A stretch of 53,311 bases of DNA, from the IMG/VR virus record IMGVR_UViG_3300012853_000040, positions 1 to 53,311 of that record; one strand, written 5' to 3'. The DNA comes from a virus (taxonomy: Duplodnaviria; Caudoviricetes). A program made the translations under genes and the position numbers. Below are positions 1 through 49,135 of this stretch, in pieces (the stretch's first letter is position 1; every line of letters begins with the position of its first letter). The notes beneath the pieces were generated by a model. It worked only from the letters and a program-made list of their open reading frames with translations. It was not told the origin of the DNA and did no database searches.

Positions 1-243
1 AAGGTCGACAAGAAGGGCGCAAAACCGCAACCGCCCGCCGCCGAGAACGGCGCCGCCGTCGCGGTCAACAAGATCACCTACGGCAAGGCGACTGTCGCTC
101 TGGCCGGCACCATCATCCCGGCAGGTGTTCTTACCGACACGGAACGAGCGGATCTGTTCGCCCTGGGCGCCCTGCGCGAACCCACCGAGGCGGAACTGGC
201 CGTGGCCGTGGCCCAGGCCGTCGCCGCCGATCCGCTGGGCTGA
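1..243 (+). CDS. 3' part of a small head-region protein ending ...AAVAADPLG*
   Basis: Frame 1 is open from base 1 to TGA 241-243; GC3-rich codons; precedes the head-tail joining genes. Confidence 0.75.
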   Translation, partial: KVDKKGAKPQPPAAENGAAVAVNKITYGKATVALAGTIIPAGVLTDTERADLFALGALREPTEAELAVAVAQAVAADPLG

Positions 244-246
244 TCT

Positions 247-630
247 GTGAGCCGCTTGCGTGAAAACAGGCGGCGTGCGCGCGGGGACCTGCACCGAGAG
301 GCTGCAGTCCCCGCGCTTTACTTCGTCTTGCCGACGACGCGACCGGGCGTGCCGTGCGCTGCCCGTGTCTGGCCGAAGTCCGACAACCAGATGATCGGCG
401 ACTTGCCGGGCCTGCATGGCGCTGAGCGCGCCGAGCCCGAGGACCGTCTACGGTTCGACCTTTCAGATTTCCCGCCGTCCGCCAAGCCGCGCCGCCATGG
501 TGTGGTGTCGGTCGAAGCCGGCGAAGCCTATCGCATTGACCACCTCTATCCCGCGGACTTCGGCTTCCAGACGGCGCGCGTGACGCGACTCTCGGCCGAG
601 GACGCGGTGACGTATCCGGTGCCCGAATGA
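247..630 (+). CDS. Head-tail joining / head-closure protein
   Basis: 127 aa; position before tail completion gene; ATGA overlap with next gene. Confidence 0.6.
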   Translation: MSRLRENRRRARGDLHREAAVPALYFVLPTTRPGVPCAARVWPKSDNQMIGDLPGLHGAERAEPEDRLRFDLSDFPPSAKPRRHGVVSVEAGEAYRIDHLYPADFGFQTARVTRLSAEDAVTYPVPE

Positions 631-1792: not shown

Positions 1793-1861
1793 CTCTTCAC
1801 CCATCTTTCTTTGAACCCGGTTTCACTATATTGGTGAACCAACCACAACGGAGTGATCCTC

Positions 1862-2635: not shown

Positions 2636-2652
2636 CGAGGAAGGGCTGACCA

Positions 2653-3111: not shown

Positions 3112-3359
3112 AAGCCTGGCTGTGGGACATCCGCCGCCAGGTGAACCTGCTTCTCTCCAGCGGTCACCCCAACGCCGACAACTACCCCATCGGCCGGGTC
3201 TTCGACGAGACCCGGCTGCTGGTGGACCGGCGCAACGGTGAGATGGCGACCCTCGGCGTGCTGATCCAGGCCGCCACGATGACGACCGGCATGGGGGCCA
3301 ACCGGAAGTCAATCGATCACTTCAAGAAGATCATCAAGGGACTGAGCGGAGATACCTAG
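3042..3359 (+). CDS. -1 frameshift extension of tail chaperone (GT-like)
   Basis: -1 frame from GGGAAAG is stop-free and joins ORF 3141-3359. Confidence 0.8.
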   Translation, partial: GKVLRPRAGDGAKRDGRSEPESLKAWLWDIRRQVNLLLSSGHPNADNYPIGRVFDETRLLVDRRNGEMATLGVLIQAATMTTGMGANRKSIDHFKKIIKGLSGDT

Positions 3360-20233: not shown

Positions 20234-20929
20234 TCAGGCCAGCGCGGCCTCGAAGGGGTCGGCGGCGGCAGGGCGCACGGCGCCCAAAATCTCAGCAAGA
20301 GGATCACTTTGTGCGAACTTGTCAACCTGATTGCCCCAGGCGTTCCAACCTGGCCGTTGAGTGCGCGCGAACAGTTCAACATAGGGGCCGGCCGCAAGGC
20401 GCTCTATCCGCTCATAGCGCTCGTCCGGTTTGCGGCTGTGCTCGCGCTTCGGCGCGTAGATGATGCGGTCGACGTCGCCCGTCATTTGCCCCCACTCGGT
20501 CTCGATGAGCTGGCGCACCCCGGCGTCGAGGCGGCTGGGCTTACCCCGGCTGAACAGCAGCGAGTACTCGACCTGCTTGCGAACCCACTTGCCCATGCTG
20601 ATCGGGCGCACGGCCGGATCATGTTTGCCGGTCTTCACCCAGACGAAGCCGTCGCTCTTGAAGGTGAAGCCCCAGTGCCGGCCGAGTTCGATCGCCTGGT
20701 CGAGGTGGCTGCCGATCACCCACATATTCAGCAGGCAGTCCTTGGCGGCGAGATCCGCCACCGGCAGCGCCTTCATTTCGTCGAGCGACATTACAGGATA
20801 GGGCGCCTCGGCCGTGCGGTGCGGCGCTGACGCCTTGCCGGCGAAGCTGGTCCACGCCCAGGCGGGATCTGCTTCGATGAAGCCGTAGCCGTTCCGCTGC
20901 AACCCTTGGAAAGGGCCGTCCGGGATCAT
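20234..20929 (-). CDS. MT-A70 family N6-adenine methyltransferase
   Basis: ADPAW (DPPW-like), YP.M, F.W.K, REHSRKP, ELFAR, GW..WGNQ. Confidence 0.92.
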   Translation of the reverse strand: MIPDGPFQGLQRNGYGFIEADPAWAWTSFAGKASAPHRTAEAPYPVMSLDEMKALPVADLAAKDCLLNMWVIGSHLDQAIELGRHWGFTFKSDGFVWVKTGKHDPAVRPISMGKWVRKQVEYSLLFSRGKPSRLDAGVRQLIETEWGQMTGDVDRIIYAPKREHSRKPDERYERIERLAAGPYVELFARTQRPGWNAWGNQVDKFAQSDPLAEILGAVRPAAADPFEAALA

Positions 20930-21189
20930 CCGAGAACCCCGGCCATGGGGTCTTGATCGAGATCGGCCGCGGGGCGCGCCTCGACCTTCGGACGGCCGAT
21001 CTGACGCTTGACGTTCTGCCTGCGGAATCGCTCAACCTCGGCGTTCCAGAACGTCTGCGCCTTGTCGCGCGCCTCGGCCTCGCTGGCGCCGGGGACCAGC
21101 ACAGGCAGAAACTTCCCATCGGTTACGATGCGCGCCAGCCATGCGGAGGCGGGCGGGGCGTCGCTGCTGTACCAGACGCAGATCTTCAT
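20926..21189 (-). CDS. Hypothetical protein, C-terminus DPMAGVLG
   Basis: ATGA-coupled at both ends. Confidence 0.7.
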   Translation of the reverse strand: MKICVWYSSDAPPASAWLARIVTDGKFLPVLVPGASEAEARDKAQTFWNAEVERFRRQNVKRQIGRPKVEARPAADLDQDPMAGVLG

Positions 21190-21539
21190 CCGAACATATC
21201 CGCAAAGGGGTCGACGGAGACGGCGGCTATGGCCTGCTCCAGAGGGGTGGGCGGCAGCGACGGGGCGGCGTCAAGCGCGGCGCCGGCCGCCTTCGCCTCG
21301 TCCACGCCTGCGTTGTGCGGCGTCATGGGGCCGCGCCGCATCGTGTAGGGCACGAGGACATTCCAGATGGCGTCGATCGGATCGTCATGGATCTCGACCG
21401 TCCAGCCGCCGCTGCGGGTGTTCTCGATTGACGCCTGGAAGCGGCCGTCTTTCGTCGGGAAAACGTGCAGTCGCAGCGTTCGGTCAACCCCGAGACGGTG
21501 ACGCACGAAGTCTTCGATGGTGCGAAGGGCGGGCGTCAC
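21186..21539 (-). CDS. Hypothetical protein, C-terminus DPFADMFG
   Basis: Coupled overlaps at both ends. Confidence 0.7.
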   Translation of the reverse strand: MTPALRTIEDFVRHRLGVDRTLRLHVFPTKDGRFQASIENTRSGGWTVEIHDDPIDAIWNVLVPYTMRRGPMTPHNAGVDEAKAAGAALDAAPSLPPTPLEQAIAAVSVDPFADMFG

Positions 21540-21676
21540 AGGGTAAGTTCCGTGCGGCCGCGCTGGACGGCCTGCGTCAGGTCCAGCAGGGCGTTTACGG
21601 TGGTCGTGCGGATCAGCCGATCGCCCTCCCAGACCTCAAGCCGCGTCCCGTTGATCCTGAAGCGCAGGGTGACCAT
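21536..21676 (-). CDS. Putative 46-aa protein
   Basis: MVTLRFRINGTRLEVWEGD...; fills the gap with coupled start and stop. Confidence 0.55.
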   Translation of the reverse strand: MVTLRFRINGTRLEVWEGDRLIRTTTVNALLDLTQAVQRGRTELTL

Positions 21677-22035
21677 CAGATCATGCCCAGCGCCGACAGA
21701 TACAGGTCCAGGATGGCTTCTTCTTCCTGGCGCTTGGCCTTGTCCTGTTTGCGCAGGCGGATGACCTTGCGCAGGATCTTGACGTCATACCCTTCGCCCT
21801 TGGCCTCGGCGTAGACCTCCTTCATGTCGACCATGACGGCCTGCTTGTCCTCTTCGAGGCGTTCAAGGCGATCGATGATCGTGGTGAGGCGACCCTGCGC
21901 CGAGGCGGTCAGGACGTCGGGGCTTGCGTCGAATGAGGCGTCGTCGGCCATGTCGGTTCTCGCGTTGGGTTTGCCGGGATCGCCGGGGCCGCGCGGGCTC
22001 CCGTCGCCGAGTTGGTCATCAAAGGGATCAGCCAT
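21676..22035 (-). CDS. gapR: GapR (DUF2312) nucleoid protein with 28-aa N-terminal extension
   Basis: AQG.L..II.R.ERLEE.K...KEVYAEAKG.G.DVK.LRK..R.RKQD..KRQEE.AILDLYLSA.G matches Caulobacter GapR as I recall it. Confidence 0.92.
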   Translation of the reverse strand: MADPFDDQLGDGSPRGPGDPGKPNARTDMADDASFDASPDVLTASAQGRLTTIIDRLERLEEDKQAVMVDMKEVYAEAKGEGYDVKILRKVIRLRKQDKAKRQEEEAILDLYLSALGMI

Positions 22036-26141: not shown

Positions 26142-26617
26142 CCCAGCACCCCCGCCATCGGGTCCTCGACCACAGGCGCCAGCAGCGCAGCCCGGCGCTC
26201 CTGCAGCCGCGCGACCATGCCGTCCAGAACGTCGGGATCGGATATGTCCTCCAGGTCAGCGGCGGCGCAGATCGCCGCCTCGGCACTGACGACCGTGCCG
26301 GCGGTGCGTTGCGAGCGAGCGCACGCAGGGCAGGCGTCGGGAGACGGCGGGGGATTGCCGACGTGGGCCGTGGCGGGAAGACCAAGATGGTGGAGCATCG
26401 AGTCCACCGCGTCATCGTCGTCGGGGATCTCGACATAGCGCTGCACCGTGACGGGCGGAGCATCGCCCGGTCGCACGTCGAAGGTGTTGAGAAAGGCGAG
26501 CAGGCCGGGCTTGTCGGTTGGGACCTCGAACTGCTCGAAGTCCTTGCCGCCCTGGGCCTGGCGCGCGTCAGATTGGGTGCTGGTCCAGATCCGACCCAGG
26601 GAGCGGTAGAGTTTCAT
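26138..26617 (-). CDS. Hypothetical protein, C-terminus DPMAGVLG
   Basis: W..TQ.DA..EVPTDKPGLL.FLN; CPAC; coupled at both ends. Confidence 0.7.
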   Translation of the reverse strand: MKLYRSLGRIWTSTQSDARQAQGGKDFEQFEVPTDKPGLLAFLNTFDVRPGDAPPVTVQRYVEIPDDDDAVDSMLHHLGLPATAHVGNPPPSPDACPACARSQRTAGTVVSAEAAICAAADLEDISDPDVLDGMVARLQERRAALLAPVVEDPMAGVLG

Positions 26618-28553: not shown

Positions 28554-28894
28554 GCCGACGCCTCCAGCCACAGCGCGCGGTCGGCCCACGTCGCCATGCG
28601 GGAATGCAGCATGTCCCGCTCCTGGACGCTCAGGCGGCGAGCCGCGTACTCGGAGAGGAACGTCACCCGCGCGGCGGTGCGGCCGGCGATGTAGGCTTCA
28701 CCGCGGCCCGGCCAGTAGACGGACAGATGGACGTGGCCTCGAACCTGCTTCAGCAGCTTGGCGCCCTGATAGCCATCGGCGACGACCAGGATCTCGGGGA
28801 GCAGCGCGTATTCGGGGGTCAGGCGAACCGGCTTGTTGAGGCCCAGGAGGCGGGCGAGCGCCGAGGTGGCCGAGAGGAACAGCTTGCGGATCAT
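28550..28894 (-). CDS. Hypothetical protein
   Basis: ATGA-coupled at both ends. Confidence 0.6.
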   Translation of the reverse strand: MIRKLFLSATSALARLLGLNKPVRLTPEYALLPEILVVADGYQGAKLLKQVRGHVHLSVYWPGRGEAYIAGRTAARVTFLSEYAARRLSVQERDMLHSRMATWADRALWLEASA

Positions 28895-29478
28895 CTCGCG
28901 GGCTCCGCAACCACACCGCTAAGCGGGTCCGGCTTCTGGAACGGAACGAATCTCCACCCCTCGTACTTCCGGGTCAGGCGGGCGAACCGATGCACCGATG
29001 CCGCTAGGCCACGCTCACAGCGCTCCAGGCACAGGCGGAACACCTTGTCGCGCTTGTCCGCCTCATAGTCCGGCGAGCGGTACAGGGTCGTTCCGTCGAA
29101 ACTGATCCGACAGATGCCGTAGTCGAACCGGTGGGTGATCACCGAGCACTCGAAGTTGACCATGATGATCTGCACGGGCTCGGTGATGCCGTCGAAGTCG
29201 ATCTCGAAATGGCCGACCACGTCGTTGCCGTCGCCGACCGGGTACATCTTGTCCGGATCGATCTCGTCGCAGTCGAGGTCAGCGTCTTCGATCAGGCGCT
29301 GACGAAGATGGTAGAGATCACTGGAGCTGGTGCCGAAGACGAAGATGTCGATGTCGCCGACCGGGCGATCGTTATCCAGATCACGCAGGCAGCCGCCGCC
29401 GATCACGGCTTCAGTAGCGAACTGCTGCACGGTGGCGAGGGCCGCTTTCCAGTTGAGGGGGATGTTCACGACAAGCAC
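28891..29478 (-). CDS. Nucleotidyltransferase (CCA/poly(A) polymerase head-like)
   Basis: GGG.LRD.....P..DIDIF and FD..IC motifs; start may be GTG 29469. Confidence 0.8.
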   Translation of the reverse strand: MLVVNIPLNWKAALATVQQFATEAVIGGGCLRDLDNDRPVGDIDIFVFGTSSSDLYHLRQRLIEDADLDCDEIDPDKMYPVGDGNDVVGHFEIDFDGITEPVQIIMVNFECSVITHRFDYGICRISFDGTTLYRSPDYEADKRDKVFRLCLERCERGLAASVHRFARLTRKYEGWRFVPFQKPDPLSGVVAEPAR

Positions 29479-34560: not shown

Positions 34561-34776
34561 TCAGCCTAGAACGGCCGCCATAGGATCGGGCGGCGTCACG
34601 GCTTCAGCGACGCGGCGGCGGTCGCGGGCCTGACCGCTGACGCATTGACGACAAGCGCCGGTTGACGTGTACCGCTCGCCCGCCGGATGGCCGAACTTGC
34701 ACGGCGTGGCGGAGATGAAGAACCGCGCGCCAGCGTTGCGGGCGTCCAGGCGGGCGGGGTCGAGCTGGCGCGCCAC
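34561..34776 (-). CDS. Small Zn-finger protein, C-terminus DPMAAVLG
   Basis: PCK.GH...RY.STG.C..C. Confidence 0.7.
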   Translation of the reverse strand: MARQLDPARLDARNAGARFFISATPCKFGHPAGERYTSTGACRQCVSGQARDRRRVAEAVTPPDPMAAVLG

Positions 34777-36507: not shown

Positions 36508-39090
36508 CTATTCGAGGTCGTTGAGACCCATGCGGGCCAGCTTGCCGACCTCGCCGCCGCGGTAGAACACGCGCTGCTTGCCGTAGCCCTTGAAGCGATG
36601 CTGGGAGCCGTCGCCGCCCCAGCCCGGCACGCGGAGCATGGCGCGATTGACCATCGCCTGCTCCTGGGTCTTGAAGGCCCGCGGATCGCCGTTGAGGCAT
36701 TCCACCCAGATCTGGGCCGTGCAGGTCTCGTTGCGAACTTCGCCCTCACCCTCGTCGTCGAGGCCGCCATTGCTGACCGGGCGTTCGAGCCATTCTGCGA
36801 TGCGGCCGGCGAGGACGTCGTCGGCATTTTCGACGCGCCGCGACTCCTGCAGCCGTGCGGCATAGAGACGGGCGTCCGGATCGGTCAGATAGAGCGGCAG
36901 GGTGCCGTGGGCCTTCTCGGCGCGCATCTGACGATAGAGGGCGGTCGCCTCGGCCCACAACTGATCGACGGACTGCTCCAGGGCGTCCGTGTCGATTTCC
37001 TCGTCTTCGCCGAGGCGACACTGGACCGGCCAGAAGCGGCGTCCGCCCGTGTCGTCCTTCAGGTATTCCCGATCGTTGGTCGACCCGATGAAGATGCACT
37101 GCCGCGGAAACTCGCCGGCCCGGCGGGCGTAGGCCAGGCGGGCGCGATCCTTCTGGCGGCTGATGAACGCCTTGATGGCGCGCACGTCAGCGCGGCTGAA
37201 GCCGGTCAGCTCGGGGATCTCCATGATCCAGGCGCCCTGCATCAGTTCGATCATCTGCTTGGTGTCGCTGAACTCGCCGTCGAGTTCAGCGAACCAGCGA
37301 CGCCCGAGCACCGAGATGAAGGTGGACTTCCGCTTGCCCTGCAGGCCTTCCAGGATCGTCGCGAAGTCGAACTTGTGACCGGGCTCGAAGATCCGCGTCA
37401 CGGCGGCAACCATCATCAGGCGCGCGACGGTGCGGTGATAGATGTCGTCCGGCGCGCGCAGATAGTTGACGTACAGCGCCTCCACGCGAGGCACGCCGTC
37501 CCACTTCAGACCGGTCAGATATTCGCGCACCGGGTGGAACGCATTGCGATTGGCCGCGAGGACCACGGCAGCTTTGAGGTCCCGGTCTGAGACCTTCAGG
37601 CCATAGCCACCCTGACTTTGCGGCGCCTCCAGGATCGAGCGGATCGCGAAGTCGCGGTCATCCGACCACAGTTCGCCGTTCAGGGTGTCCTTCACGTCCC
37701 AGACGCGACCTTCGAGCTGGCGCGCCATCTTCACGGCGTTGCGGCGCCGGTTCTTCTGGCGCCCCGGCAAAGTGCGCTGGACCGTCTCCTGGGTGAACTC
37801 GTTGAGTTGCGGGAGCCCGACGATCCGCGGATCGTTGCAGATGATCAGCTCGACGTTGTGCAGCGTCGGCTTGGGGACTGATTTTTCTTCGGACAGGTCC
37901 AGCAGCGACAACCAGTCGCCGGCCGCGGGGTGCGCGGAAATCTTGGCGCCGTCGCCGCCGCCCGTGAACTCGTCGAGGTCATCGATCGCCGCGGGAGCAG
38001 GGGAGGGCTTGCCCCCCAGCACGTCCGCCAGCGGGTCGTCGACATCGGCCTGGGTCTGCGATTCCTCCAGGTCCAGCGTGTCGTCCTCGTCTTCCTCCTC
38101 GAAGCGGTTTCGCATGTCGGCGATGCGGGCCTGCTGCGCCCACTGGCGAATGGTCGCCATCGTGACCGGCTGACCCCGATACTTGCCGAAGGAGCGCCAT
38201 TTGATGCGCCGCATCTCGCGAAGTTGGCTGTCGCCCGTGAACTTCTTCGAGCGCTTGGTGTGCTGAATCCAGAGATCCAGCCCCTCCGCCGATCCGCCGA
38301 ACTGGTGGTGCAGCGCCTGGCCAAGCCGAACCCAGTCGTCATAGTGGAGATCGCTGATCTGGATCAGATCCAGCTCGCGTTCCAACTGCCCAGGCTTGAA
38401 GTCCAGCGGCTCACGCGCCTCGAAGGCGTAGGTCGAGGTCTCCGCAGCGCCTAGCGCTTCGATAACGGCTGAGGCGATGGTTGGCGCGATGCCCAGATCC
38501 AGCATCTGCAGATCGAAGGTGCGCTCCCAAACGTAGGGTCGCCCGGTGTCGGGGTGGATGCTGGGCGGCATGGCCACCTGCTTTCCCGTGCCGAACAGTT
38601 CGATTTCCCAGTCGTAGGACCATTTCTCCCGGACCTCGCCCGTGTCGTGGTCCACGACTTCACGGCGGTGTTTACCCTCTGACGTCAGCAGCAGCTTGCT
38701 GGAGAACGCCTTGTCCGAGATGAAATAGAGGTGCCGCGACTCGCCGCCGGAGCCAGAGGCCACGCGGGGCAGCGTATCGAGCCCGATGGTGGGGAGCAGG
38801 GCGCGGAGCGCGTCCCAGGCTTCATCGGCCAGTTCGGCAATGCGGATGTCGGCGTCCAGAACGTGGACGTAGCCGGCGGGCGTCAGCGATGGTTCGCCTA
38901 GCCGGAGGCCGAGGTTGTTGCCGGGTCGGTGGCTGCGCTGCAGTTCGTCTAGCGAGGCGACGGGCTTGTCTTGCCAGCCCTTGCCGATCGGCCGCTTCTC
39001 CCGTGGATGCAGCCAGTGGAGCGCAAACCCGGCTTCGCGCAGCGGCGCGATCGCGGACAAGACGCTCCCGTCGTGTTGGTCAGTGGTCAT
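36508..39090 (-). CDS. Primase-helicase (Prim-Pol + PriCT-2 + VirE/VapE ATPase)
   Basis: N.G.R.G, D.D, H.YF, V.MPPSIHP.TG..Y.W; YDDW..LG.ALH; G.QG..KST, EI.EL, GSTN..EYL.D.TG.RRF. Confidence 0.92.
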   Translation of the reverse strand: MTTDQHDGSVLSAIAPLREAGFALHWLHPREKRPIGKGWQDKPVASLDELQRSHRPGNNLGLRLGEPSLTPAGYVHVLDADIRIAELADEAWDALRALLPTIGLDTLPRVASGSGGESRHLYFISDKAFSSKLLLTSEGKHRREVVDHDTGEVREKWSYDWEIELFGTGKQVAMPPSIHPDTGRPYVWERTFDLQMLDLGIAPTIASAVIEALGAAETSTYAFEAREPLDFKPGQLERELDLIQISDLHYDDWVRLGQALHHQFGGSAEGLDLWIQHTKRSKKFTGDSQLREMRRIKWRSFGKYRGQPVTMATIRQWAQQARIADMRNRFEEEDEDDTLDLEESQTQADVDDPLADVLGGKPSPAPAAIDDLDEFTGGGDGAKISAHPAAGDWLSLLDLSEEKSVPKPTLHNVELIICNDPRIVGLPQLNEFTQETVQRTLPGRQKNRRRNAVKMARQLEGRVWDVKDTLNGELWSDDRDFAIRSILEAPQSQGGYGLKVSDRDLKAAVVLAANRNAFHPVREYLTGLKWDGVPRVEALYVNYLRAPDDIYHRTVARLMMVAAVTRIFEPGHKFDFATILEGLQGKRKSTFISVLGRRWFAELDGEFSDTKQMIELMQGAWIMEIPELTGFSRADVRAIKAFISRQKDRARLAYARRAGEFPRQCIFIGSTNDREYLKDDTGGRRFWPVQCRLGEDEEIDTDALEQSVDQLWAEATALYRQMRAEKAHGTLPLYLTDPDARLYAARLQESRRVENADDVLAGRIAEWLERPVSNGGLDDEGEGEVRNETCTAQIWVECLNGDPRAFKTQEQAMVNRAMLRVPGWGGDGSQHRFKGYGKQRVFYRGGEVGKLARMGLNDLE

Positions 39091-39633: not shown

Positions 39634-40233
39634 ATGAGTCTTGAAGCCGCCCTCGCAGCGCACGCTGAAGTGATTGCCGCCAACACCGCCGAAACCCGAC
39701 GCAACAACGACTTTCTGGAACGCGTGATCGCCGGCCAGGCCGCCGCCCTCGAAAAGATCGAGACGCCGAAGGCCCCGCGCACGACCAAAAAGGCCGACGC
39801 GCCTGCACCGGCCTCCGACGCCCCCTCTACGGCTCCGGCCGCTGAAGCGCCTGCGTCGGCTCCGACCCCCGAAGCCGCGTCGTCAGCAGCGACCGAGGTC
39901 AGCGACGCCGACGTGCGTAATGCGGCCGTCGCCTGGATGGCGAAGGTTGATCCGGCGGGTGAAGCCGACCCGAGCAAGAAGGACATGGCCAAGCGCACCG
40001 AATGCGCCGCCTTCCTGGGCGACATCCTGAACTGGATGGGATTCCCGGCCGGCGCGAAGATCACCGGCCCGGACGCCACCCTGTCGGCGGAGCAGCGCCA
40101 GCAGGCGGTCTTCTTCATCAACCGCCGCGCTGCCGGGCTGACTGTCGACTTCAGCGCCGACTACGACTTCGACGGCGACCCCGCCCAGGGCGCTGCAGCG
40201 GCTCCGGCCGCGGTGGTCGATCCTCTGGGCTGA
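39634..40233 (+). CDS. Hypothetical replication-module protein, C-terminus VVDPLG
   Basis: MSLEAAL start; Ala/Pro linker; acidic tail. Confidence 0.75.
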   Translation: MSLEAALAAHAEVIAANTAETRRNNDFLERVIAGQAAALEKIETPKAPRTTKKADAPAPASDAPSTAPAAEAPASAPTPEAASSAATEVSDADVRNAAVAWMAKVDPAGEADPSKKDMAKRTECAAFLGDILNWMGFPAGAKITGPDATLSAEQRQQAVFFINRRAAGLTVDFSADYDFDGDPAQGAAAAPAAVVDPLG

Positions 40234-41113: not shown

Positions 41114-42339
41114 CGGACGTTGAACGGCTAGATGACGACCTGGCGCACGCGCCGCTCGGCCCTTCGGCCGCAGAAGGTTGGGCCACCTGCTCCGACTATG
41201 TCAACGCGAACGCCGGCCTGCCGGATGAACCGACCTTCCCGGCCGCGGAGGGGACGGCTGCCCACGCCATTTCGGATCTGTGCTTGACGCTGGGATTCGA
41301 CGCCGCGGATTTCATCGGCACGACGACCAAGATCCTGGAGTGGGAGTTCACCTGGACCGCCGAGGACGCAGCCCTTCTGCAGCGCGGCATCGATCGTGTG
41401 CGAGCGTTGGGCGGCCAGTTCTACGGAGAGCGCCGGGTCGACATCGCCCACTGGACGATTCCCGGCCAGTTCGGAACGCTGGACCGCGCGGTGCTCGTTC
41501 TGATCGACGGCGTCTGGTGGATTTTCATCATCGACCTGAAGTGGGGCCGCTGGCCCGTGTATCCGGTCGACAACAAGCAGCTCGTCCTTTACGCGCTTGG
41601 CTTCTGGAACGACATCGCGCGTCACATCGTCGGCGAGGCGCCGGTTCGTTTCCACCTGGAGATCGATCAGCCGCGCTCAGCCGGCGGCGGCGGGGTCTGG
41701 CAGACGAGTCTCGATACGTTGCTGCGTGCCGGCGACTGGCTGCGCGAGCGCGCGACGGAAACCCAGGTCCCCTATCCCGAGCGCACGGCCTCGGAGAAGG
41801 GTTGCGCCTTCTGCCGTCGCAAACTGCTGAAGAACGGCGGCTGTTCGACCTATGACACCTTCAATCGTCTGCTGATCGGCGCCAAGTTCGACGAGGAGCC
41901 CGAGGTCACGGCGCTGGTCCCACAGGCAGCGCTGACGCCGGAACAGCGCGCGTTCGTCCTGTCGCACAAGAAGATGATCAGCACCTGGCTGGAGCAACTT
42001 GAGGCCCAGGAGCTTGAAGATTTCCTCGCCGGCCGCCCGACGCCAGGCCGCAAGGCGGTGGTGGATACCCAAAAGGGAACCCGCGCCAAATGGAAGAACG
42101 AGAAGGAGGCTGAGGCCGCCCTGGTGCCGCTTATCGGCGAGAAGAGTTTCACCAAGAAGTTGATAACGCCCGCGCAGGCGCGTAAGCAGATCTCCAAGGA
42201 GGACTTCGCCAAAATCGCTTCGGTCATCAATCCGGGCGAGAGCGGCAAGTCGATGGTCCCCCTTGAAGATGCACGGTCGGCGATCGCCGTCGTGCTTTTC
42301 GATGAAGAAGACGTAGAAGTCGGAGAAGACGAGAAGTGA
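41110..42339 (+). CDS. Cas4-like PD-(D/E)XK exonuclease (DUF2800)
   Basis: HA.L.PS.A..W..C, A.EGT.AH, FGT.D, DLK.G, N.QL.LYALG, C.FC. Confidence 0.88.
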   Translation: MTDVERLDDDLAHAPLGPSAAEGWATCSDYVNANAGLPDEPTFPAAEGTAAHAISDLCLTLGFDAADFIGTTTKILEWEFTWTAEDAALLQRGIDRVRALGGQFYGERRVDIAHWTIPGQFGTLDRAVLVLIDGVWWIFIIDLKWGRWPVYPVDNKQLVLYALGFWNDIARHIVGEAPVRFHLEIDQPRSAGGGGVWQTSLDTLLRAGDWLRERATETQVPYPERTASEKGCAFCRRKLLKNGGCSTYDTFNRLLIGAKFDEEPEVTALVPQAALTPEQRAFVLSHKKMISTWLEQLEAQELEDFLAGRPTPGRKAVVDTQKGTRAKWKNEKEAEAALVPLIGEKSFTKKLITPAQARKQISKEDFAKIASVINPGESGKSMVPLEDARSAIAVVLFDEEDVEVGEDEK

Positions 42340-43151
42340 GCACCAAACAACCCCTCCCGCCGTTCGAGATGACCCAGAACGGCAAGAACATCGAAATCAA
42401 GCTGCGGCGTGTCCCGCTGTCCTTCGCGGACGTGTGGGAAGCGGCCGAGAGCGAGGACGAGAACGGCAACAAGACCGGTCGCTTCAGTGTCTCCACCAGC
42501 GTGCTGCTGGCGAAGGACACCGAGCGCGGCAAGGCTCAGATCGGGGCCGTCCGTGAAGCCATGAAGATGGCCCGTACTGCTGAGTGGGGCGACGACGCGC
42601 CTGTCATCGGCGCGGACCGTCTGGCGCTGCAGGATGGCGAACCCATCGACCCGAACACGGCCGATCCGGACGTTCCGGGCAGCGGCGAACGCAAGGCCCG
42701 CTGGGACGGCTACGCCGGCATGATGTATGTGTCGGCCAAGCGTTACCTGAAGGCCAAGAACGCCGAGGACGCGGCGAAGGAACTGCGGGAGAAGCACCCT
42801 GTGCAGATCCTGGGTCCGCGCAAGACGGCCGTCGTCGATGGCAAGCCGGCCTTCCCGATCCTGAAGGAGTCGGACGACCTGATCTACAGCGGCGCGGTCT
42901 GCGATGTGATCATCCAGATCTATCCCTACAACGGCACCGGCAAGGGTTCGAACGGCAAGAACCTGCCCCACCGGATCAACGCCAGTCTGGAGGCGATCAA
43001 GTTCGTCGAGCACGGCACCCGCCTCGGCGGCGGCAAGCGCATCGACGCGCAGTCGGCCTTCGACGAGGAAGACGAGGACGATTACGACACCGACAGCGAG
43101 TCCGAGGCTTCGCCTTCGACCGGCGCCGTCATCGACGATCCCCTCGGCTGA
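42336..43151 (+). CDS. ssDNA-binding protein (DUF2815), C-terminus DDPLG
   Basis: V.LSF..VW, L.DG, YSG..C..I...Y, L..I.F...G..LGG; acidic tail. Confidence 0.85.
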   Translation: MSTKQPLPPFEMTQNGKNIEIKLRRVPLSFADVWEAAESEDENGNKTGRFSVSTSVLLAKDTERGKAQIGAVREAMKMARTAEWGDDAPVIGADRLALQDGEPIDPNTADPDVPGSGERKARWDGYAGMMYVSAKRYLKAKNAEDAAKELREKHPVQILGPRKTAVVDGKPAFPILKESDDLIYSGAVCDVIIQIYPYNGTGKGSNGKNLPHRINASLEAIKFVEHGTRLGGGKRIDAQSAFDEEDEDDYDTDSESEASPSTGAVIDDPLG

Positions 43152-43214: not shown

Positions 43215-45107
43215 ATGCTGACCTTCGGATCGGTCTGCAGCGGGATTGAAGCGGCCTCCGTCGCCTGGGAGCCGCTGGGATGGCGGGCCGTGTGGCTGTC
43301 AGAGATCGACAAGGCCGCCAGCAAAGTCCTCGCCTACCGCTTCCCGAACGTGCCGAACCATGGCGACATGCTGAAGCTGGCCGCGAAGGTGCGTGCCCGT
43401 GAGATACCGGCGCCCGACATCCTGGTCGGCGGCACACCGTGCCAGTCGTTCTCCGTGGCCGGGATGCGCCGCGGTCTGGGCGACCCGCGTGGCCAACTGA
43501 CCATTGCCTTCATCGACCTCGCCAACGCCATCGACGAGATCCGCGCTGCGGACGGCCTGCCGCCGGTCATCATCATTTGGGAGAACGTCCCCGGTGTCCT
43601 CACCCATCCAGACAACCCCTTCGGCTGCTTCCTTGCTGGCATTGCCGGCGAAGACGATGCAGTCGAGCCGGCAGGGAAGAAATGGACGAACGCTGGTTGT
43701 GTGTTTGGACCCCAAAGGCCAGTCGCGTGGCGGATCCTCGACGCCCAATATTTCGGATTGGCCCAACGACGCCGTCGTGTGTTCGTTGTCGCAAGTGCTC
43801 GTGAGGGGTTCGATCCCGCAGCAATACTTCTTGAGTTCGACGGCGTGCGCCGGGATTCTCCGCCGAGCCGAGACGCGGGGGAAGGCGTTGCCGGAACCGT
43901 TGATGCGCGCACTACAGGCGGTGGCTTACCTGGCTCAGACGGACCCTGCGGCGCGCACGACGTGCCCGCTATACGAGGTCACGCTGACGGACTCGGACAT
44001 CGCAGGCTTGGAGGAGCTGTTCCAGGACCCGATGGACTCGGTGATGGGGTAGATCTTCAGAATATCGCTCTGAGTGGTGATGCGGTGGGTACCATCGACA
44101 CCGGCATGGCGCGCGGGAATCGGGGTTACGGGGTGCTTGATCGCGCGCCCGTCCCACCAGGTGGGGACGGGCGCGCCGTATCGCAGACGCTCGATGCCGT
44201 ACTGCACAAGGGTCAGACGATGCCCGAGAAGAACCGCTTCCCGGCGGTACTTCAACCGGTCATCGAATCTGAGCTCTATTCCATCATGCCGATGAACAGC
44301 GGCAAGGACTACAAGGCCCGCAAGGTGGAGGTCACGCAGCCGCTCATGGGCGCAGGCCCAGTGGGCGGGAACCAGGGCGGCGACTACATCGTCCAGCCTC
44401 TCGACGTGTTGCCGTTCGACACCACCCAGATCACCAGCCCCGGCAACTTCAGCAGCCCGAACTATGGCGATCCTTCGCATCCGCTCGCGGCCGGAGCCCA
44501 CCCGCCCTCGGTTGTCTACTCCGTCGCCCTGCGCGGCCGGGAGGGCGGCGGTACGGCCGAACTCGGTGACGATCTCGCCGGATGCCTGCGCGCGTCGTCA
44601 GGCGGCGGTGACAAGCCGCATGTCCTGACACCGACAATCGCCTTCCAGGAGCGTGGGCGATCCGAAGGACGCAGTCTCGAAATCAATGGAGACCTCTCCT
44701 ACGCGCTGACGGCCCCATCCGGTGGCGGACGCGGGCAGGAGCGCAACATCCTCGACGGTGTCACCATGGCCGTCCGCCGCCTTATGCCCGTCGAATGCGA
44801 ACGCCTGCAGGGGTTCCCGGATAACTGGACGGCCGTTCCGGTCAAGAAGGTCGCCAGCAACAAGATGCGGCCGGGCAACAGCTACGCCGAGATCAACGCC
44901 GAGATTTGGCAATTGGCCGCTGATGGCCCCCGCTACAAACAGTGCGGGAACAGCATGGCGACCAAGGTTATGCGTTGGATCGGCAGCCGGGTCGCCTGGC
45001 ACCTCTCCACCCGGCTGCCGGGCCACAATGGCGGCCCGCCCCTCGACGACTTCGATCTGATGCTGGGCCTGGGCGTTCCCGATCCCATGGACGCGGTGAT
45101 CGGATGA
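43215..45107 (+). CDS. C5-cytosine DNA methyltransferase with long multi-TRD variable region
   Basis: SVCSGIEA, GGTPCQSFS, ENV, QRRRRVF, RRL.P.ECERLQGFPD, GNS motifs. Confidence 0.93.
   Translation: MLTFGSVCSGIEAASVAWEPLGWRAVWLSEIDKAASKVLAYRFPNVPNHGDMLKLAAKVRAREIPAPDILVGGTPCQSFSVAGMRRGLGDPRGQLTIAFIDLANAIDEIRAADGLPPVIIIWENVPGVLTHPDNPFGCFLAGIAGEDDAVEPAGKKWTNAGCVFGPQRPVAWRILDAQYFGLAQRRRRVFVVASAREGFDPAAILLEFDGVRRDSPPSRDAGEGVAGTVDARTTGGGLPGSDGPCGAHDVPAIRGHADGLGHRRLGGAVPGPDGLGDGVDLQNIALSGDAVGTIDTGMARGNRGYGVLDRAPVPPGGDGRAVSQTLDAVLHKGQTMPEKNRFPAVLQPVIESELYSIMPMNSGKDYKARKVEVTQPLMGAGPVGGNQGGDYIVQPLDVLPFDTTQITSPGNFSSPNYGDPSHPLAAGAHPPSVVYSVALRGREGGGTAELGDDLAGCLRASSGGGDKPHVLTPTIAFQERGRSEGRSLEINGDLSYALTAPSGGGRGQERNILDGVTMAVRRLMPVECERLQGFPDNWTAVPVKKVASNKMRPGNSYAEINAEIWQLAADGPRYKQCGNSMATKVMRWIGSRVAWHLSTRLPGHNGGPPLDDFDLMLGLGVPDPMDAVIG
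43504..44052 (+). CDS. Nested +1-frame protein inside the methylase (beta-subunit-like), C-terminus DPMDSVMG
   Basis: SLSQVL..IPQQYFLS..ACAGILRRAE.RGK.LP block; carries the phage-wide C-terminal tag; start uncertain. Confidence 0.65.
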   Translation: MPSSTSPTPSTRSALRTACRRSSSFGRTSPVSSPIQTTPSAASLLALPAKTMQSSRQGRNGRTLVVCLDPKGQSRGGSSTPNISDWPNDAVVCSLSQVLVRGSIPQQYFLSSTACAGILRRAETRGKALPEPLMRALQAVAYLAQTDPAARTTCPLYEVTLTDSDIAGLEELFQDPMDSVMG

Positions 45108-47149: not shown

Positions 47150-48714
47150 TGCTGACCCCGCACCAGGCCCTGCTGCTCTCCATCGCGACGCTGCAGCCCG
47201 GCATCATGCACAGCATCGTGCCAATCCGGCCCGAGATGCTGAACGCCGTCGTTCTGCGCGACTATCAGCTCGACCTGCTGCGGCGCGCCGCGGCGGCGTT
47301 CATGCAGGGCTATCGACGCGTCCTGATCGTGCTGCCGACCGGCGGCGGCAAGACAGTGCTGGCGGGCCAGGCGCTGAAGTGCGCGCAGAACCTCGACATG
47401 CTCGGCTGGTTCCTGGTCCATCGGAAGGAACTGATCGACCAGACCAGCAAATCCTTCCTCAAGATGGGTCTGCCGCACGGCTTCATCGCCTCCGGCCGCG
47501 ACATGGATCTGTCGGCGTCGACCATGCTGACCGGCGTCCAGACCCTGGTGAATCGGCTGGACGTCGTCCTCCCGCCGAACCTGATGATCGTGGATGAGGC
47601 GCACCACGCCGCCGCAGCCACCTGGGAGCGCGTCTTCGCCGCCAACCCGGACACCTTCGTCTTAGGCCTCACGGCGACGCCCGAGCGCCTGGACGGGAAG
47701 GGGCTCGACAGCCAGTTCGACGTGATGATCGTCGGCCCGTCGCCGGCCGAACTGATCGCCCGAGGCTTCCTCAGCCCGTTCGACTATTACGCCCCGAGCC
47801 TGCCCGACATGAGCGGTGTCCGCACCGAGCAGCAGGCCGAAGCGGTCATGGACCAGCCCGACCTGATCGGGGACATGGTCGAGCACTATCTGCGCCTGGC
47901 CAAGGGGGAGCCGGGACTCGTGTTCGCCCACTCGATCGAGCACAGCAAGCATCTGATCGACGCCTTCGCGGCCGAGGGCGTCCGCGCCGCCCACATGGAC
48001 GGCGACATGAGCGACAAGGAGCGTGAGCGCGTAGACGCCATGCTCCGCAACCGCGACATCGACCTGATGAGCAGCGTCCAGCTCGTCGGCGAGGGTTACG
48101 ACGTGCCGGAGGTGCGCTACTGCGGCATCGGCCGGCGCACCCAGTCGCTGGGGTGGTTCAAGCAGATGACGGGCCGGGTGATGCGGCCGGTCTATCTCAG
48201 CGGCGCCGACCTCTCAACGGACGGCGCGCGCCGACTGGCGATCGAGCGCGGGCCGAAGCCGCAGGCCATCATCGCCGACCACGCCTCGAACGTCTTCACC
48301 CACGGCTTCCCGGATGACGACGTCGAGTGGTCGCTGCTCGGCCGCGAGGGGCGCCCGAAGACCGGGGTCAACGACGACGCGGACCCGGTGCGCCAGTGCA
48401 TGGCGTGCTATCGGGCCTACCCGTCGCGCCTGAAGGCCTGCCCCGGCTGCGGCGCCACCCAGGCCACCTCACCTCGGCTGATCAAGGAGAAGGCCGGCGA
48501 ACTGGTGCGCCTGGAGCGCGAAGCGCTGAAGGCCAAGGCGGCTGAGGAGAAGAAGGCCGCGCAGCGCAAGCGCGAGGCTGAGGAGAAGGCCTGCAAAAGC
48601 TACGCCGACTTCCACGCCCTGGCCGTGGCGCGCGATTACGACGAGCCTCGGAAGTGGGCGAACATGAAGATCAGCTTGAAGAACAACTATAGCAAGAGGT
48701 TCCGCGGTGGCTAA
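47149..48714 (+). CDS. SF2 (DEAH) helicase with C-terminal Zn-finger
   Basis: LRDYQ, PTGGGKT, DEAHH, TATP.R.D, EG.D.P, QM.GR..R; C..C...CP.CG. Confidence 0.93.
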   Translation: MLTPHQALLLSIATLQPGIMHSIVPIRPEMLNAVVLRDYQLDLLRRAAAAFMQGYRRVLIVLPTGGGKTVLAGQALKCAQNLDMLGWFLVHRKELIDQTSKSFLKMGLPHGFIASGRDMDLSASTMLTGVQTLVNRLDVVLPPNLMIVDEAHHAAAATWERVFAANPDTFVLGLTATPERLDGKGLDSQFDVMIVGPSPAELIARGFLSPFDYYAPSLPDMSGVRTEQQAEAVMDQPDLIGDMVEHYLRLAKGEPGLVFAHSIEHSKHLIDAFAAEGVRAAHMDGDMSDKERERVDAMLRNRDIDLMSSVQLVGEGYDVPEVRYCGIGRRTQSLGWFKQMTGRVMRPVYLSGADLSTDGARRLAIERGPKPQAIIADHASNVFTHGFPDDDVEWSLLGREGRPKTGVNDDADPVRQCMACYRAYPSRLKACPGCGATQATSPRLIKEKAGELVRLEREALKAKAAEEKKAAQRKREAEEKACKSYADFHALAVARDYDEPRKWANMKISLKNNYSKRFRGG

Positions 48715-49135
48715 GTCCGGTCGATCCGAGAAGGCGATCCTGAACGACACCCTAGTGTCGGTGACAGCGGCGCCCGAAACCATGGCTTGGAGGAACAATA
48801 CAGGGCAGGCTTGGGCCGGGCAGCGAATCAGAATGCGACCGGGGGCGAAAATCACTGTCGACGGCCAAGTTTATACTGCGGCGCCGAACACCGTCCTGAT
48901 GCTGCAGGCCCAGCCGATCACCTTCGGCCTTCCTGGCTCGGGTGACATTCTGGGCGCGTCGGCCGGCAGACCTCTGATGATCGAGGTCAAGGATGCGACA
49001 GGTCGTCAGAGCGAACAGCAAAAGGCCTGTCAGCGAGCTTGGGAGGCGGCCGGCGGAGTCTACCTCCTTGTCAGGGACGCTGAGGACGCCAGACGCCAGG
49101 TCGAAGCGCTGAATCCGCTCAACGTCATCGGTTGA
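48707..49135 (+). CDS. VRR-NUC nuclease, C-terminus NPLNVIG
   Basis: WRNNTG, G..G.GDI.G, IEVK...GR....Q. Confidence 0.88.
   Translation: MAKSGRSEKAILNDTLVSVTAAPETMAWRNNTGQAWAGQRIRMRPGAKITVDGQVYTAAPNTVLMLQAQPITFGLPGSGDILGASAGRPLMIEVKDATGRQSEQQKACQRAWEAAGGVYLLVRDAEDARRQVEALNPLNVIG

What the first reader, a model, noticed from the sequence alone, without database searches (positions are those of the whole stretch)
1..49135. A phage-wide peptide tag (DP-[LMF]-x-x-hydrophobic-hydrophobic-G* or DPLG*) on about a dozen unrelated proteins
Seen: C-termini AADPLG* (1-243), DPMAGVLG* (20926-21189), DPFADMFG* (21186-21539), DPMAGVLG* (26138-26617), DPMAAVLG* (34561-34776), VVDPLG* (39634-40233), IDDPLG* (SSB), DPMDAVIG* (C5 methylase) and DPMDSVMG* (nested ORF). 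Variants are NPLNVIG* (VRR-NUC) and the doubled DPLAEILG...DPFEAALA* (MT-A70). The motif also occurs at the GapR N-terminus (DPFDDQLG) and in the primase linker (DPLADVLG). The two DPMAGVLG copies use different codons (gac ccc atg gcc ggg gtt ctc gga vs gac ccg atg gcg ggg gtg ctg gga), so conservation is on the peptide and not on a DNA repeat. The tags usually follow disordered Ala/Pro/acidic linkers and are enriched on DNA-acting proteins. They are absent from the ends of tail and lysis proteins. Inference: a short linear docking motif (DP N-cap plus amphipathic turn) that addresses many phage proteins to one hub. The hub could be a replisome or replication compartment (an SSB-tail-like system), a protease or adaptor, or capsid co-packaging machinery. 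I know of no description of such a system.
Basis: partly seen in the sequence, partly recalled or inferred. Interest (0 to 1): 0.88.

Follow-up and report, generated by a model that had tools for sequence, protein, structure and literature searches.

The report
Shared docking peptide on many phage proteins
About a dozen unrelated proteins of this integrated phage, and of a whole lineage of related phages, carry the same tiny acidic-hydrophobic peptide ending in glycine, which is also the tip of the phage's own single-strand-DNA-binding protein and most likely plugs them all into one still unidentified partner.

Summary
In the window, 8 of 69 called ORFs end in DP[LMF]xx[VIM][LIMF]G* or DPLG* (about 0.003 expected). 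A nested ORF, the MT-A70 and VRR-NUC variants, and internal or N-terminal copies add to this.

It is a peptide, not a DNA repeat. The core is Phi-x-x-Phi-Phi-G. It sits on N-termini, C-termini or linkers.

In 18 related genomes, 58 of 1478 proteins end exactly in the core; 1.9 are expected. Recurrent carriers are the portal, small terminase, PrimPol-helicase, methylases, integrase and VRR-NUC.

The short form is the conserved tip of the acidic tail of a T7-gp2.5/Enc34-type SSB.

Tags of unrelated proteins change in concert within each genome (0 of 2000 permutations). A second protein copies the SSB tip in 8 of 10 genomes. This points to one co-evolving receptor.

The host genome of a related prophage has the motif only inside the prophage (5 of 5 hits).

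The receptor is not identified. A T7-like replisome site is my first guess. Rivals are a sliding clamp and head-assembly docking. I found no published description.

The parts
1..243 (+). 3' part of a small ORF that follows the major capsid gene in relatives; ends AADPLG* (tip at 229-240).
   Evidence: The orthologue in G001 ends EDPIG* and the one in L026 ends DDNPLG*.
20234..20929 (-). MT-A70 adenine methylase with two copies: DPLAEILG (20282-20305) and the terminal variant DPFEAALA* (20237-20260).
   Evidence: Pfam PF05063, E 6e-28; motif positions. The orthologue in L025 ends DPLEAVLG*.
20926..21189 (-). 87-aa protein of unknown function ending DPMAGVLG* (20929-20952).
   Evidence: No Pfam or PHROG family.
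21186..21539 (-). 117-aa protein of unknown function ending DPFADMFG* (21189-21212).
   Evidence: No family found.
21676..22035 (-). GapR-like DNA-binding protein with an N-terminal extension carrying DPFDDQLG (residues 3-10; 22006-22029).
   Evidence: PF10073 on residues 46-117; motif. Orthologues in G001 and L025 (about 90 aa) lack the extension.
26138..26617 (-). 159-aa protein of unknown function ending DPMAGVLG* (26141-26164).
   Evidence: The G001 orthologue (54% identity) ends DPMGDILG*.
28891..29478 (-). Nucleotidyltransferase-like protein with the variant DPLSGVV (28909-28929), five residues before its end.
   Evidence: phrog_1614. This is a weak, variant member.
34561..34776 (-). 71-aa protein (phrog_1081) ending DPMAAVLG* (34564-34587).
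   Evidence: The G001 relative (1143-1559) ends DPLANVLG*; the Sphingomonas prophage relative has no tag.
36508..39090 (-). PrimPol / PriCT-2 / VapE primase-helicase with an acidic stretch and DPLADVLG in the interdomain linker (38014-38037).
   Evidence: Pfam. The motif is invariant against G001. Linker copies occur in 7 of 16 family members, and other members have C-terminal variants.
39634..40233 (+). Protein of unknown function ('family 33'): coiled-coil N-terminus, Pro/Ala-rich linker, small C-terminal domain, and a tip VVDPLG* (40219-40230).
   Evidence: Its tip equals the SSB tip of the same genome in 8 of 10 genomes. No Pfam, PHROG or PDB relative.
42336..43151 (+). Enc34 / T7-gp2.5-type SSB with an acidic disordered tail ending IDDPLG* (43137-43148).
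   Evidence: PF10991. AF2 model: core pLDDT above 90, tail pLDDT 42-64. Of 69 homologues, 43 end in hydrophobic residue + Gly and 15 end in DPLG (my count from the listing).
43215..45107 (+). C5 cytosine methylase with a double tag: DDFDLMLG (45045-45068) and the terminal DPMDAVIG* (45081-45104).
   Evidence: PF00145. Frame 0 is homologous to the Serratia phage Smarc1 Dcm. Tags.
43504..44052 (+). Overlapping +1-frame ORF inside the methylase gene, ending DPMDSVMG* (44026-44049).
   Evidence: The GC3 signal switches to this frame at about 43750-44125. The frame is conserved in Serratia phage Smarc1 and in the Sphingomonas prophage, where it ends EEIEDLLG*. 177 database proteins match it.
48707..49135 (+). 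VRR-NUC-like endonuclease / Holliday-junction-resolvase homologue ending in the variant NPLNVIG* (49112-49132).
   Evidence: phrog_93 and phrog_5702; no Pfam hit at E up to 0.1. The G001 orthologue ends ISSVLG*; the Sphingomonas prophage orthologue has the motif at its N-terminus, SQFDDILG.

Best explanation
The tags are a portable short linear motif. The core is hydrophobic-x-x-hydrophobic-hydrophobic-Gly, preceded by acidic residues or Pro. In this phage it reads DP-[LMF]-x-x-[VIM]-[LIMF]-G, with a short form DPLG. The motif sits on disordered N-terminal or C-terminal extensions or on interdomain linkers.

It belongs to a lineage of temperate siphoviruses of sphingomonad-type Alphaproteobacteria. 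These phages combine a lambda-type portal and terminase with an Enc34/T7-gp2.5-type replication module.

The short form is the tip of the acidic tail of the phage's own SSB. The longer form has been added to other proteins: the primase-helicase, two DNA methylases (and an overlapping-frame product), a resolvase-like nuclease, GapR, several small proteins and, in relatives, the integrase, portal and small terminase.

Inferred mechanism: the peptide forms a one-turn amphipathic helix with an acidic lead-in. It docks all carriers, weakly and exchangeably, onto one common receptor that co-evolves with the phage.

My preferred reading is the T7 logic writ large. In T7, the SSB tail and the helicase-primase tail share a site on the replisome. 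Here the site would be the phage DNA polymerase or the SSB's own OB cleft, and the same site would recruit DNA-modifying, recombination, integration and packaging proteins to replicating phage DNA.

Shown: the existence, enrichment, portability and concerted evolution of the motif, and its identity with the SSB tip. Inferred: binding itself. Unknown: the receptor.
For: Enrichment: 8 of 69 called ORFs in the window are tagged, against about 0.003 expected. In 18 related genomes, 58 of 1478 proteins end exactly in the core; 1.9 are expected, 500 tail shuffles give a mean of 1.35 and a maximum of 6, and offsets 1-20 from the end hold 0-6 each.

Peptide-level selection: synonymous sites and flanks differ between copies.

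Portability: the motif moves between termini and is gained or lost among orthologues of the integrase, VRR-NUC, GapR and PrimPol.

SSB link: the SSB is PF10991, the T7 gp2.5 fold type (PMC5686142 passages). 43 of 69 homologues end in a hydrophobic residue + Gly. Some end in hybrids such as DPMDDPLG*.

The PrimPol linker repeats the SSB-tail layout: an acidic run, a spacer, then DDPL...G.

One receptor: non-homologous tags agree at positions 4-5 in 137 of 380 within-genome pairs (36%), against 639 of 4823 between-genome pairs (13%); 0 of 2000 label permutations reach this.

Vertically inherited carriers follow the genome flavour: portal 6 of 11, MT-A70 5 of 6, family 43 7 of 8, with chance at or below 0.24.

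The SSB tip equals the family-33 tip in 8 of 10 genomes.

Phage-specific: the strict pattern gives 6 hits in the 53-kb window and 0 in the roughly 4-Mb S. hankookensis record. All 5 of 5 FDDxLG hits in that genome lie inside its prophage.

T7 precedent: gp2.5 ends DEDGDF* and gp4A ends NDTDF*. That both tails bind the T7 polymerase is partly stated in the Enc34 paper and otherwise recalled.
Against: No binding was shown and no receptor was identified.

The motif on the portal and small terminase (12 of 17 and 7 of 17 genomes) does not fit a purely replisomal receptor.

Three genomes whose SSB has a basic tail without a tip (G055, G056, G067) still carry the motif on the portal and terminase. 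The SSB tip is therefore not required for the system.

AF2 monomer models did not dock the SSB tail or the portal leader back onto their own bodies. The tail has pLDDT 42-64. The leader forms a helix at residues 6-10 at pLDDT about 54.

Within-genome similarity could partly reflect copying of tags between genes of one genome rather than co-evolution.

Gene calls, start codons and family clustering are my own and crude.

The 18 genomes are a selected subset: 15 of 27 long contigs, from 79 loci.
Confidence: 0.6

Rival explanations
1. The motif is a sliding-clamp-binding peptide. All carriers ride the host beta clamp on newly replicated phage DNA. This would parallel T4, where polymerase and late-transcription proteins share a C-terminal clamp-binding tail and packaging is coupled to that machinery.
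For: The last six residues of T4 gp43 (LDFLFG*) fit the core exactly, and gp55 carries SLDFLY near its end. That these bind the gp45 clamp is recalled knowledge.

Clamp-binding motifs lie in C-terminal tails, in a disordered N-terminus (Hda) or in internal loops (review PMC11139829, passages). The distribution here is the same.

The carriers are typical clamp clients: methylases, resolvase, integrase, primase-helicase.

Double tags would suit a dimeric clamp.

The host DinB ends QLDLL*, not far from the prophage's QFDDLLG.

T4 terminase is linked to gp55 and, genetically, to gp32 (PMC3012670 passages).
Against: The canonical motif is Q-Phi-x-[LM]-[FL]. The tags lack the Gln in register and have a different hydrophobic spacing.

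The phage DNA polymerase family carries no tag in 14 genomes.

No DnaN or gp45 family was found in the window or in 5 complete relatives. The gp45 model had no positive control.

Host proteins do not use the motif.

The segments I recall as corresponding to the E. coli pocket are invariant or nearly so in 28 Sphingomonadales DnaN sequences (the mapping is from memory), yet the tag flavour differs between phages and shifts in concert.

The short DPLG tip cannot fill a clamp pocket.
Confidence: 0.15
2. The motif is a head-assembly address. It would be a docking peptide for the procapsid initiator (S49 protease/scaffold or portal), as on the cleaved leader of lambda portal gpB. On other proteins it would serve for encapsidation, like the T4 capsid targeting sequence, or for processing by the prohead protease.
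For: 67 of 120 closest lambda-family portal homologues have the core within their first 30 residues, as do 12 of 17 portals in the genome set.

The lambda gpB leader is MKTPTIPTLLGPDG..., and its 22 N-terminal residues are removed (PMC3224144 table).

The small ORF after the capsid gene carries the tip.

The T4 internal proteins share only a capsid targeting sequence (PMC3012670 passage).

The minimal systems (G055, G056, G067) have the motif mainly on the portal and terminase.
Against: The small terminase is not a capsid component. Encapsidating an SSB and an 860-aa primase-helicase in a 53-72 kb siphovirus head is implausible.

Most tags here are C-terminal with nothing downstream to cleave.

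The SSB-family-wide tip points to a replication role.

The window itself lacks the head module, so nothing could be checked in it.
Confidence: 0.12
3. The motif is a degron or adaptor-binding tag. It would deliver the carriers to a host or phage protease (ClpXP, Lon and the like) for timed turnover.
For: The location is terminal and exposed. The tag is portable. Regulators such as the integrase carry it in some genomes. The window encodes a transglutaminase-like cysteine peptidase (PF06035).
Against: Stoichiometric, abundant proteins carry the motif: SSB, portal, small terminase.

Internal linker copies and double copies exist.

The flavour is genome-specific although host proteases are conserved.

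The peptidase has no match (E <= 1e-5) among my G001 gene calls.

The motif resembles no ClpX or Lon recognition class that I can recall.
Confidence: 0.05

Closest known systems
T7 replisome acidic tails (gp2.5 SSB and gp4 helicase-primase)
   Same: The SSB fold type is the same (PF10991, Enc34 ORF6; and PMC5686142). Both have an acidic disordered tail with a short hydrophobic tip. In both, a second replisome protein (the primase-helicase) carries a like peptide. The T7 tails end DEDGDF* and NDTDF*.
   Different: The tip ends in Gly, not Phe. A defined 6-8-residue helical core exists. Up to 13 carriers occur per genome, including methylases, integrase, portal and terminase. The motif also sits at N-termini and in linkers. 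The receptor is unknown. That the T7 tails share sites on gp5 is recalled.
T4 gp45 clamp-binding C-terminal tails (gp43, gp55, gp33)
   Same: Unrelated proteins of one phage share a terminal acidic-hydrophobic peptide. gp43 ends LDFLFG*, which fits the core. The T4 system links replication, transcription and packaging.
   Different: No phage clamp was found. The polymerase is untagged here. That these T4 tails bind the clamp is recalled, not tested.
Bacterial beta-clamp-binding motif and the SSB-Ct hub (DDDIPF)
   Same: These are hub-and-peptide systems whose peptides lie in disordered termini or loops. The composition is acidic plus hydrophobic.
   Different: There is no Gln in register and the spacing differs. 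In the SSB-Ct system one tail meets many pockets; here many tails presumably meet one pocket. The host uses the canonical QLDLL* on DinB. The DDDIPF sequence is recalled.
T4 capsid targeting sequence and the lambda gpB portal leader
   Same: A short shared peptide addresses unrelated proteins to the assembling head. The lambda leader contains IPTLLG.
   Different: The T4 sequence is N-terminal and is cleaved off (recalled). Here most tags are C-terminal and sit on replication proteins. The function of the lambda leader is not known to me.

Membership tests
Bacterial beta-clamp-binding motif (Q-Phi-x-[LM]-[FL] or Q-Phi-x-[LM]-x-[FL]) | Gln at position 1, in register with the hydrophobic residues. 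| tested here: not met
   0 of 8 strict motifs in the window have Q at the position before the first hydrophobic residue; Pro holds it. In the Sphingomonas prophage 2 of 5 FDDxLG copies start with Q, but the spacing is Q-Phi-x-x-Phi-Phi. Consensus taken from PMC11139829.
Bacterial beta-clamp-binding motif (Q-Phi-x-[LM]-[FL] or Q-Phi-x-[LM]-x-[FL]) | Location in a disordered terminus or loop. | tested here: met
   The tags lie at exact C-termini, in N-terminal extensions and in linkers. The SSB tail and portal leader have low pLDDT.
Bacterial beta-clamp-binding motif (Q-Phi-x-[LM]-[FL] or Q-Phi-x-[LM]-x-[FL]) | Binds the hydrophobic pocket of DnaN. | not testable with these tools
   This needs a binding assay or a structure.
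T4-type clamp-binding tails | A phage-encoded sliding clamp is present. | tested here: not met
   PF00712 and PF09116 gave 0 matches at E up to 1 in the window and in 5 complete relatives. The PF09116 search had no positive control, and distant clamps could be missed.
T4-type clamp-binding tails | The replicative polymerase carries the tail. | tested here: not met
   The polymerase family is present in 14 genomes and none is tagged. The window's polymerase ends WFALAA*.
T7 gp2.5-type SSB with a partner-binding acidic tail | gp2.5 / Enc34-type OB fold. | tested here: met
   PF10991, E 2e-15. AF2 core pLDDT above 90.
T7 gp2.5-type SSB with a partner-binding acidic tail | Acidic disordered C-terminal tail. 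| tested here: met
   The tail reads FDEEDEDDYDTDSESE...IDDPLG, with pLDDT 42-64.
T7 gp2.5-type SSB with a partner-binding acidic tail | C-terminal aromatic residue (Phe). | tested here: not met
   The tail ends in Leu-Gly. 43 of 69 homologues end in hydrophobic residue + Gly. Some relatives end in FG.
T7 gp2.5-type SSB with a partner-binding acidic tail | The tail binds the phage polymerase and helicase. | not tested
   No polymerase-tail test was run.
T4 capsid targeting sequence | N-terminal, on encapsidated proteins, removed by the prohead protease. | tested here: not met
   Most window tags are C-terminal, on replication and modification proteins. Encapsidation and cleavage are not testable here.

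The most novel reading that the evidence does not exclude
A phage-encoded 'address code'. One co-evolving receptor reads a 6-8-residue peptide. Through it, the receptor gathers the SSB, primase-helicase, methylases, resolvase, integrase, GapR, portal and terminase of a temperate phage into a single replication-modification-packaging factory. New clients join simply by acquiring the peptide at either end. Each phage lineage keeps its own flavour, which would insulate co-infecting relatives from one another.
Probability: 0.35. Interest if true: 0.85.

Novelty: new variant of a known kind. Interest (0 to 1): 0.74.

Why it matters
Shared docking peptides are known in phage replisomes for two or three proteins (T7, T4).

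Here the same peptide marks up to 13 proteins per genome, spanning replication, DNA modification, recombination, integration and packaging. It moves freely between termini. It drifts in concert within each genome.

If one receptor reads it, three things follow. It would be a compact, transplantable recruitment system in bacteria. It would give a way to assign 'unknown' small phage proteins to a pathway by their tag alone. It would be a natural case of a co-evolving motif-receptor code that could enforce incompatibility between related phages.

The hypothesis is directly testable with peptide pull-downs.

Tried and rejected
DNA repeat or translational-coupling artefact: rejected. Only 3 of the 8 C-terminally tagged called ORFs overlap the next start as ATGA. 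Codons and flanks differ between copies.

Close annotated relatives: megablast against the phage collection found only a 215-bp methylase match.

IMG/VR scan for DPMxxVLG+TGA: 8 stretches matched. In 7 the motif-bearing ORF had low GC3 (0.42-0.56, chance-like), and in L007 no such ORF was found. A wider pattern found G001, L018, L025 and L026.

SSB core as a receptor in cis: the AF2 model leaves the tail undocked. Portal body as a receptor in cis: the leader forms a short low-confidence helix and is not docked. Neither result excludes binding in trans.

Complex prediction: the chains were S. hankookensis DnaN (28-row alignment), the prophage SSB core (69 rows), and the last 43 residues of the prophage methylase as partner. 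The verdict was 'no answer', with score 0.00 against a mark of 0.32. This is no evidence either way. The phage polymerase, terminase, nuclease and protease were not tested because only one job was allowed.

Phylogenetic profile of tag-rich against tag-poor genomes: it picked families 26, 33 and 39. Families 33 and 39 are themselves carriers. Family 26 has only a weak QslA-like lead (0.83). The profile is confounded by relatedness, so no receptor emerged.

BTLCP peptidase as the reader of the tag: it has no match (E <= 1e-5) among my G001 gene calls.

Literature: the searches found no description of this motif. Supplements were not consulted. PMC2538852 is not held.

Rows dropped:
- 2 of 30 DnaN loci were not parsed by my start-finding pattern.
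- 9 of 120 portal homologues were left out of alignment A5 (truncated N-termini or duplicates).

Full report
WHAT THE WINDOW IS. The window is a whole IMG/VR provirus record of 53,311 bp and 65% G+C, estimated 80% complete.

It encodes tail genes on the left (about 250-19,850, + strand). A leftward early block follows:
- MT-A70 methylase
- GapR (PF10073)
- class II ribonucleotide reductase
- a dNMP-kinase-like protein
- thymidylate synthase
- a MazG-like pyrophosphatase
- a nucleotidyltransferase-like protein
- many small ORFs

Next comes a PrimPol/PriCT-2/VapE primase-helicase. A rightward replication block then holds a DUF2800 nuclease, an Enc34-type SSB, a C5 methylase, a DNA polymerase, an SNF2-type helicase and a VRR-NUC-like nuclease. 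A tyrosine integrase lies at the right end. The head module is missing.

CHECK OF THE OBSERVATION.

Among my 69 called ORFs, 5 end in DP[LMF]xx[VIM][LIMF]G and 3 end in DP[LI]G. Composition predicts 0.0001 and 0.003. Of the 696 remaining ORFs of 40 aa or more, one has a tag: the nested ORF.

All 8 strict 8-mers found in six-frame translation lie in frames with coding-type GC3. Copies differ at synonymous sites and in their flanks, so the peptide is what is conserved.

THE MOTIF IS SHARED BY A PHAGE LINEAGE. The closest relative is G001 (71.5 kb, CheckV 100%). It has 5 long and 3 short tags among 81 called ORFs, plus one on an uncalled ORF.

Orthologues keep, lose or gain the tag independently of the fold:
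- The integrase is tagged in G001 (DPLAAVLG*) but not in the window.
- The window's GapR has a tagged N-terminal extension that relatives lack.

The S. hankookensis prophage carries the flavour [EQ]FDD[IL]LG. It sits on these proteins:
- the portal (N-terminus)
- the small terminase (N-terminus)
- VRR-NUC (N-terminus; the tag is C-terminal in the window)
- the PrimPol linker, at the same place as in the window
- a methylase, twice
- two further proteins

DP is therefore a local flavour. The core is Phi-x-x-Phi-Phi-G with an acidic lead-in.

THE 18-GENOME SET. A portal-based search found 79 viral loci. Of 27 long contigs, 25 also encode the DUF2815 SSB, including 19 of 19 that are at least 90% complete. 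I fetched 15 of them in full.

In the 18-genome set, 58 of 1478 proteins end exactly in the core. The expectation is 1.9. In 500 shuffles of the last 30 residues the mean is 1.35 and the maximum 6. Offsets 1-20 from the C-terminus hold 0-6 each.

Recurrent carriers are:
- portal, N-terminal: 12 of 17 genomes
- small terminase, N-terminal: 7 of 17
- integrase: 5 of 12
- C5 methylase: 5 of 6
- MT-A70: 3 terminal and 3 near-terminal, of 10
- a 134-aa family: 5 of 7
- VRR-NUC: 1 C-terminal and 3 N-terminal, of 8
- PrimPol: linker copy in 7 of 16, with C-terminal variants in others

Among the 120 best portal homologues in the large protein database, 67 have the core within their first 30 residues.

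The 20 residues upstream of C-terminal tags are richer in Pro (8.4% against 5.4%) and Asp (10.3% against 6.7%). Their net charge is -1.5, against -0.1 for untagged proteins.

LINK TO THE SSB TAIL. The SSB belongs to PF10991, whose founding member, Enc34 ORF6, has the T7 gp2.5 fold and an acidic unstructured C-terminus (PMC5686142 passages). The AF2 model has a confident core and a disordered tail.

Of 69 homologues, 43 end in a hydrophobic residue + Gly, and 15 end in DPLG (my count). Some SSBs end in hybrids of the two forms, such as DPMDDPLG* and DPLDMLG*.

The PrimPol linker repeats the tail's layout: an acidic run, a spacer, then DDPL...G.

An unrelated protein, family 33 (window 39634-40233), ends in the same last four residues as the SSB of its own genome in 8 of 10 genomes. 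The shared tips are DPLG, DEFG, DDFG, FNIG, FDIG and DLGL.

EVIDENCE FOR ONE CO-EVOLVING RECEPTOR. Each genome has its own flavour...MLG in G045...LLG in G047...LIG in G048, G049 and G053, and ...[VI]LG in the window, G001, G066 and the Sphingomonas prophage.

Tags on non-homologous proteins agree at positions 4-5 in 137 of 380 within-genome pairs. Between genomes the figure is 639 of 4823. None of 2000 label permutations reaches the observed value.

Carriers that are inherited vertically follow the flavour of their genome.

The motif is not a host habit. The strict pattern gives 6 hits in the window and none in the S. hankookensis record. All 5 FDDxLG hits in that genome lie inside the prophage.

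WHAT THE RECEPTOR MIGHT BE. It is not established.

The T7 analogy favours the phage polymerase or the SSB cleft. In T7, gp2.5 and gp4A both end in acidic tails with a terminal Phe. However, carriage of the motif by the portal and terminase does not fit a purely replisomal site.

A sliding clamp would unify replication and packaging, as it does in T4. T4 gp43 ends LDFLFG*, which fits the core, and T4 terminase is linked to gp55 and gp32. Several points argue against a clamp here:
- No phage clamp was detected.
- The polymerase is untagged.
- The host's own motif is the canonical QLDLL*.
- The DnaN segments that I take, from memory of the E. coli pocket, to line the binding pocket are invariant or nearly so across 28 Sphingomonadales, although tag flavours differ.

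A head-assembly address is suggested by the near-universal portal leader and by lambda gpB, whose cleaved 22-residue leader contains IPTLLG.

The single complex prediction allowed gave no verdict. AF2 monomer models showed no cis docking.

THE NESTED ORF. Frame 0 of the C5 methylase gene is homologous along its length to the Serratia phage Smarc1 enzyme.

The +1 frame is also conserved in that phage and in the Sphingomonas prophage. There it ends in that phage's own flavour, EEIEDLLG*. It is also represented by 177 database proteins. Some of these carry PF00145 on one or the other side.

GC3 switches to the +1 frame over about 43,750-44,125. This looks like a conserved overprinted gene or alternative product. 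In the window both products end in the tag, which supports the view that the tag is functional.

VERDICT. The 'docking motif to one hub' reading is supported by comparative evidence but is unproven, and the hub is unknown. The closest precedents are the T7 acidic tails and the T4 clamp-binding tails. The scale, the positional freedom, the inclusion of packaging, modification and integration proteins, and the genome-specific flavour are new to my knowledge. My literature searches found no description.

Noticed in passing
window 43504-44052 (+1 frame inside 43215-45107): A conserved overlapping reading frame lies inside the C5 methylase gene. The same +1 frame (SIPxxYFLSSTACxGILRRAxxRGKxLP) is open and conserved in Serratia phage Smarc1 and in the S. 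hankookensis prophage, and matches 177 database proteins. In some of these it is fused in frame to the N-terminal half of a C5 methylase, in others to the C-terminal half. The 215 bp at 43679-43893 are 81-85% identical to Vibrio and Serratia phage DNA, perhaps because of the double coding.
   Followed up: partly
17 related genomes (large terminase family; the window lacks this gene): All 17 large terminases end in a conserved amphipathic helix, roughly [ST]-L-x-x-L-[GA]-x-x-L-[GA]*. This resembles the lambda gpA C-terminus (...TLADYARALSGEDE*). It does not follow the genome's tag flavour, so it is probably a separate portal-binding element.
   Followed up: partly
L061 (phage lambda) genes B, FII, nu1: The cleaved lambda portal leader contains IPTLLG. 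gpFII starts ADFDNLFD, like the portal leaders DFDFLFDD of some sphingomonad phages. Nu1 has LADIFG inside what I take to be its helix-turn-helix region (recalled, not tested).
   Followed up: no
window 39634-40233 and its relatives (family 33): A protein of unknown function: coiled-coil N-terminus, basic and Pro/Ala-rich linker, and a conserved ...DFSADYDFDGDP... domain. Its extreme tip copies the SSB tip of the same genome in 8 of 10 genomes. It is the first gene of the rightward replication operon.
   Followed up: partly
genomes G055, G056, G067 (SSB family): Three relatives have SSBs with arginine-rich basic C-terminal tails (...RRRRD*, ...RRRGR*, ...RSRDDD*) instead of acidic tails. These genomes carry the motif almost only on the portal, small terminase and PrimPol.
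   Followed up: no
window 22196-30266 (- strand): A nucleotide-metabolism cluster: class II RNR; a thymidylate synthase whose Pfam match begins only at residue 101 of 382; a dNMP-kinase-like protein; a MazG-like pyrophosphatase; a nucleotidyltransferase-like protein; and a 'cysteine dioxygenase' PHROG. It may point to a modified base.
   Followed up: no
window 35347-35739 (-): A 130-aa homologue of bacterial transglutaminase-like cysteine proteinases (PF06035, E 1e-16). It has no match (E <= 1e-5) among my G001 gene calls.
   Followed up: no
window 19847-20143 (-): A small conserved protein (family 26). It is present in 8 of 9 tag-rich genomes and in 0 of 4 tag-poor genomes. Its only lead is a weak language-model similarity (0.83) to the LasR antiactivator QslA.
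   Followed up: partly
G001 42255-42878 (L005:2255-2878): A YpsA/SLOG (DprA-like) family protein lies between the terminase and portal genes. It ends in the tag in G001 and in L026.
   Followed up: no
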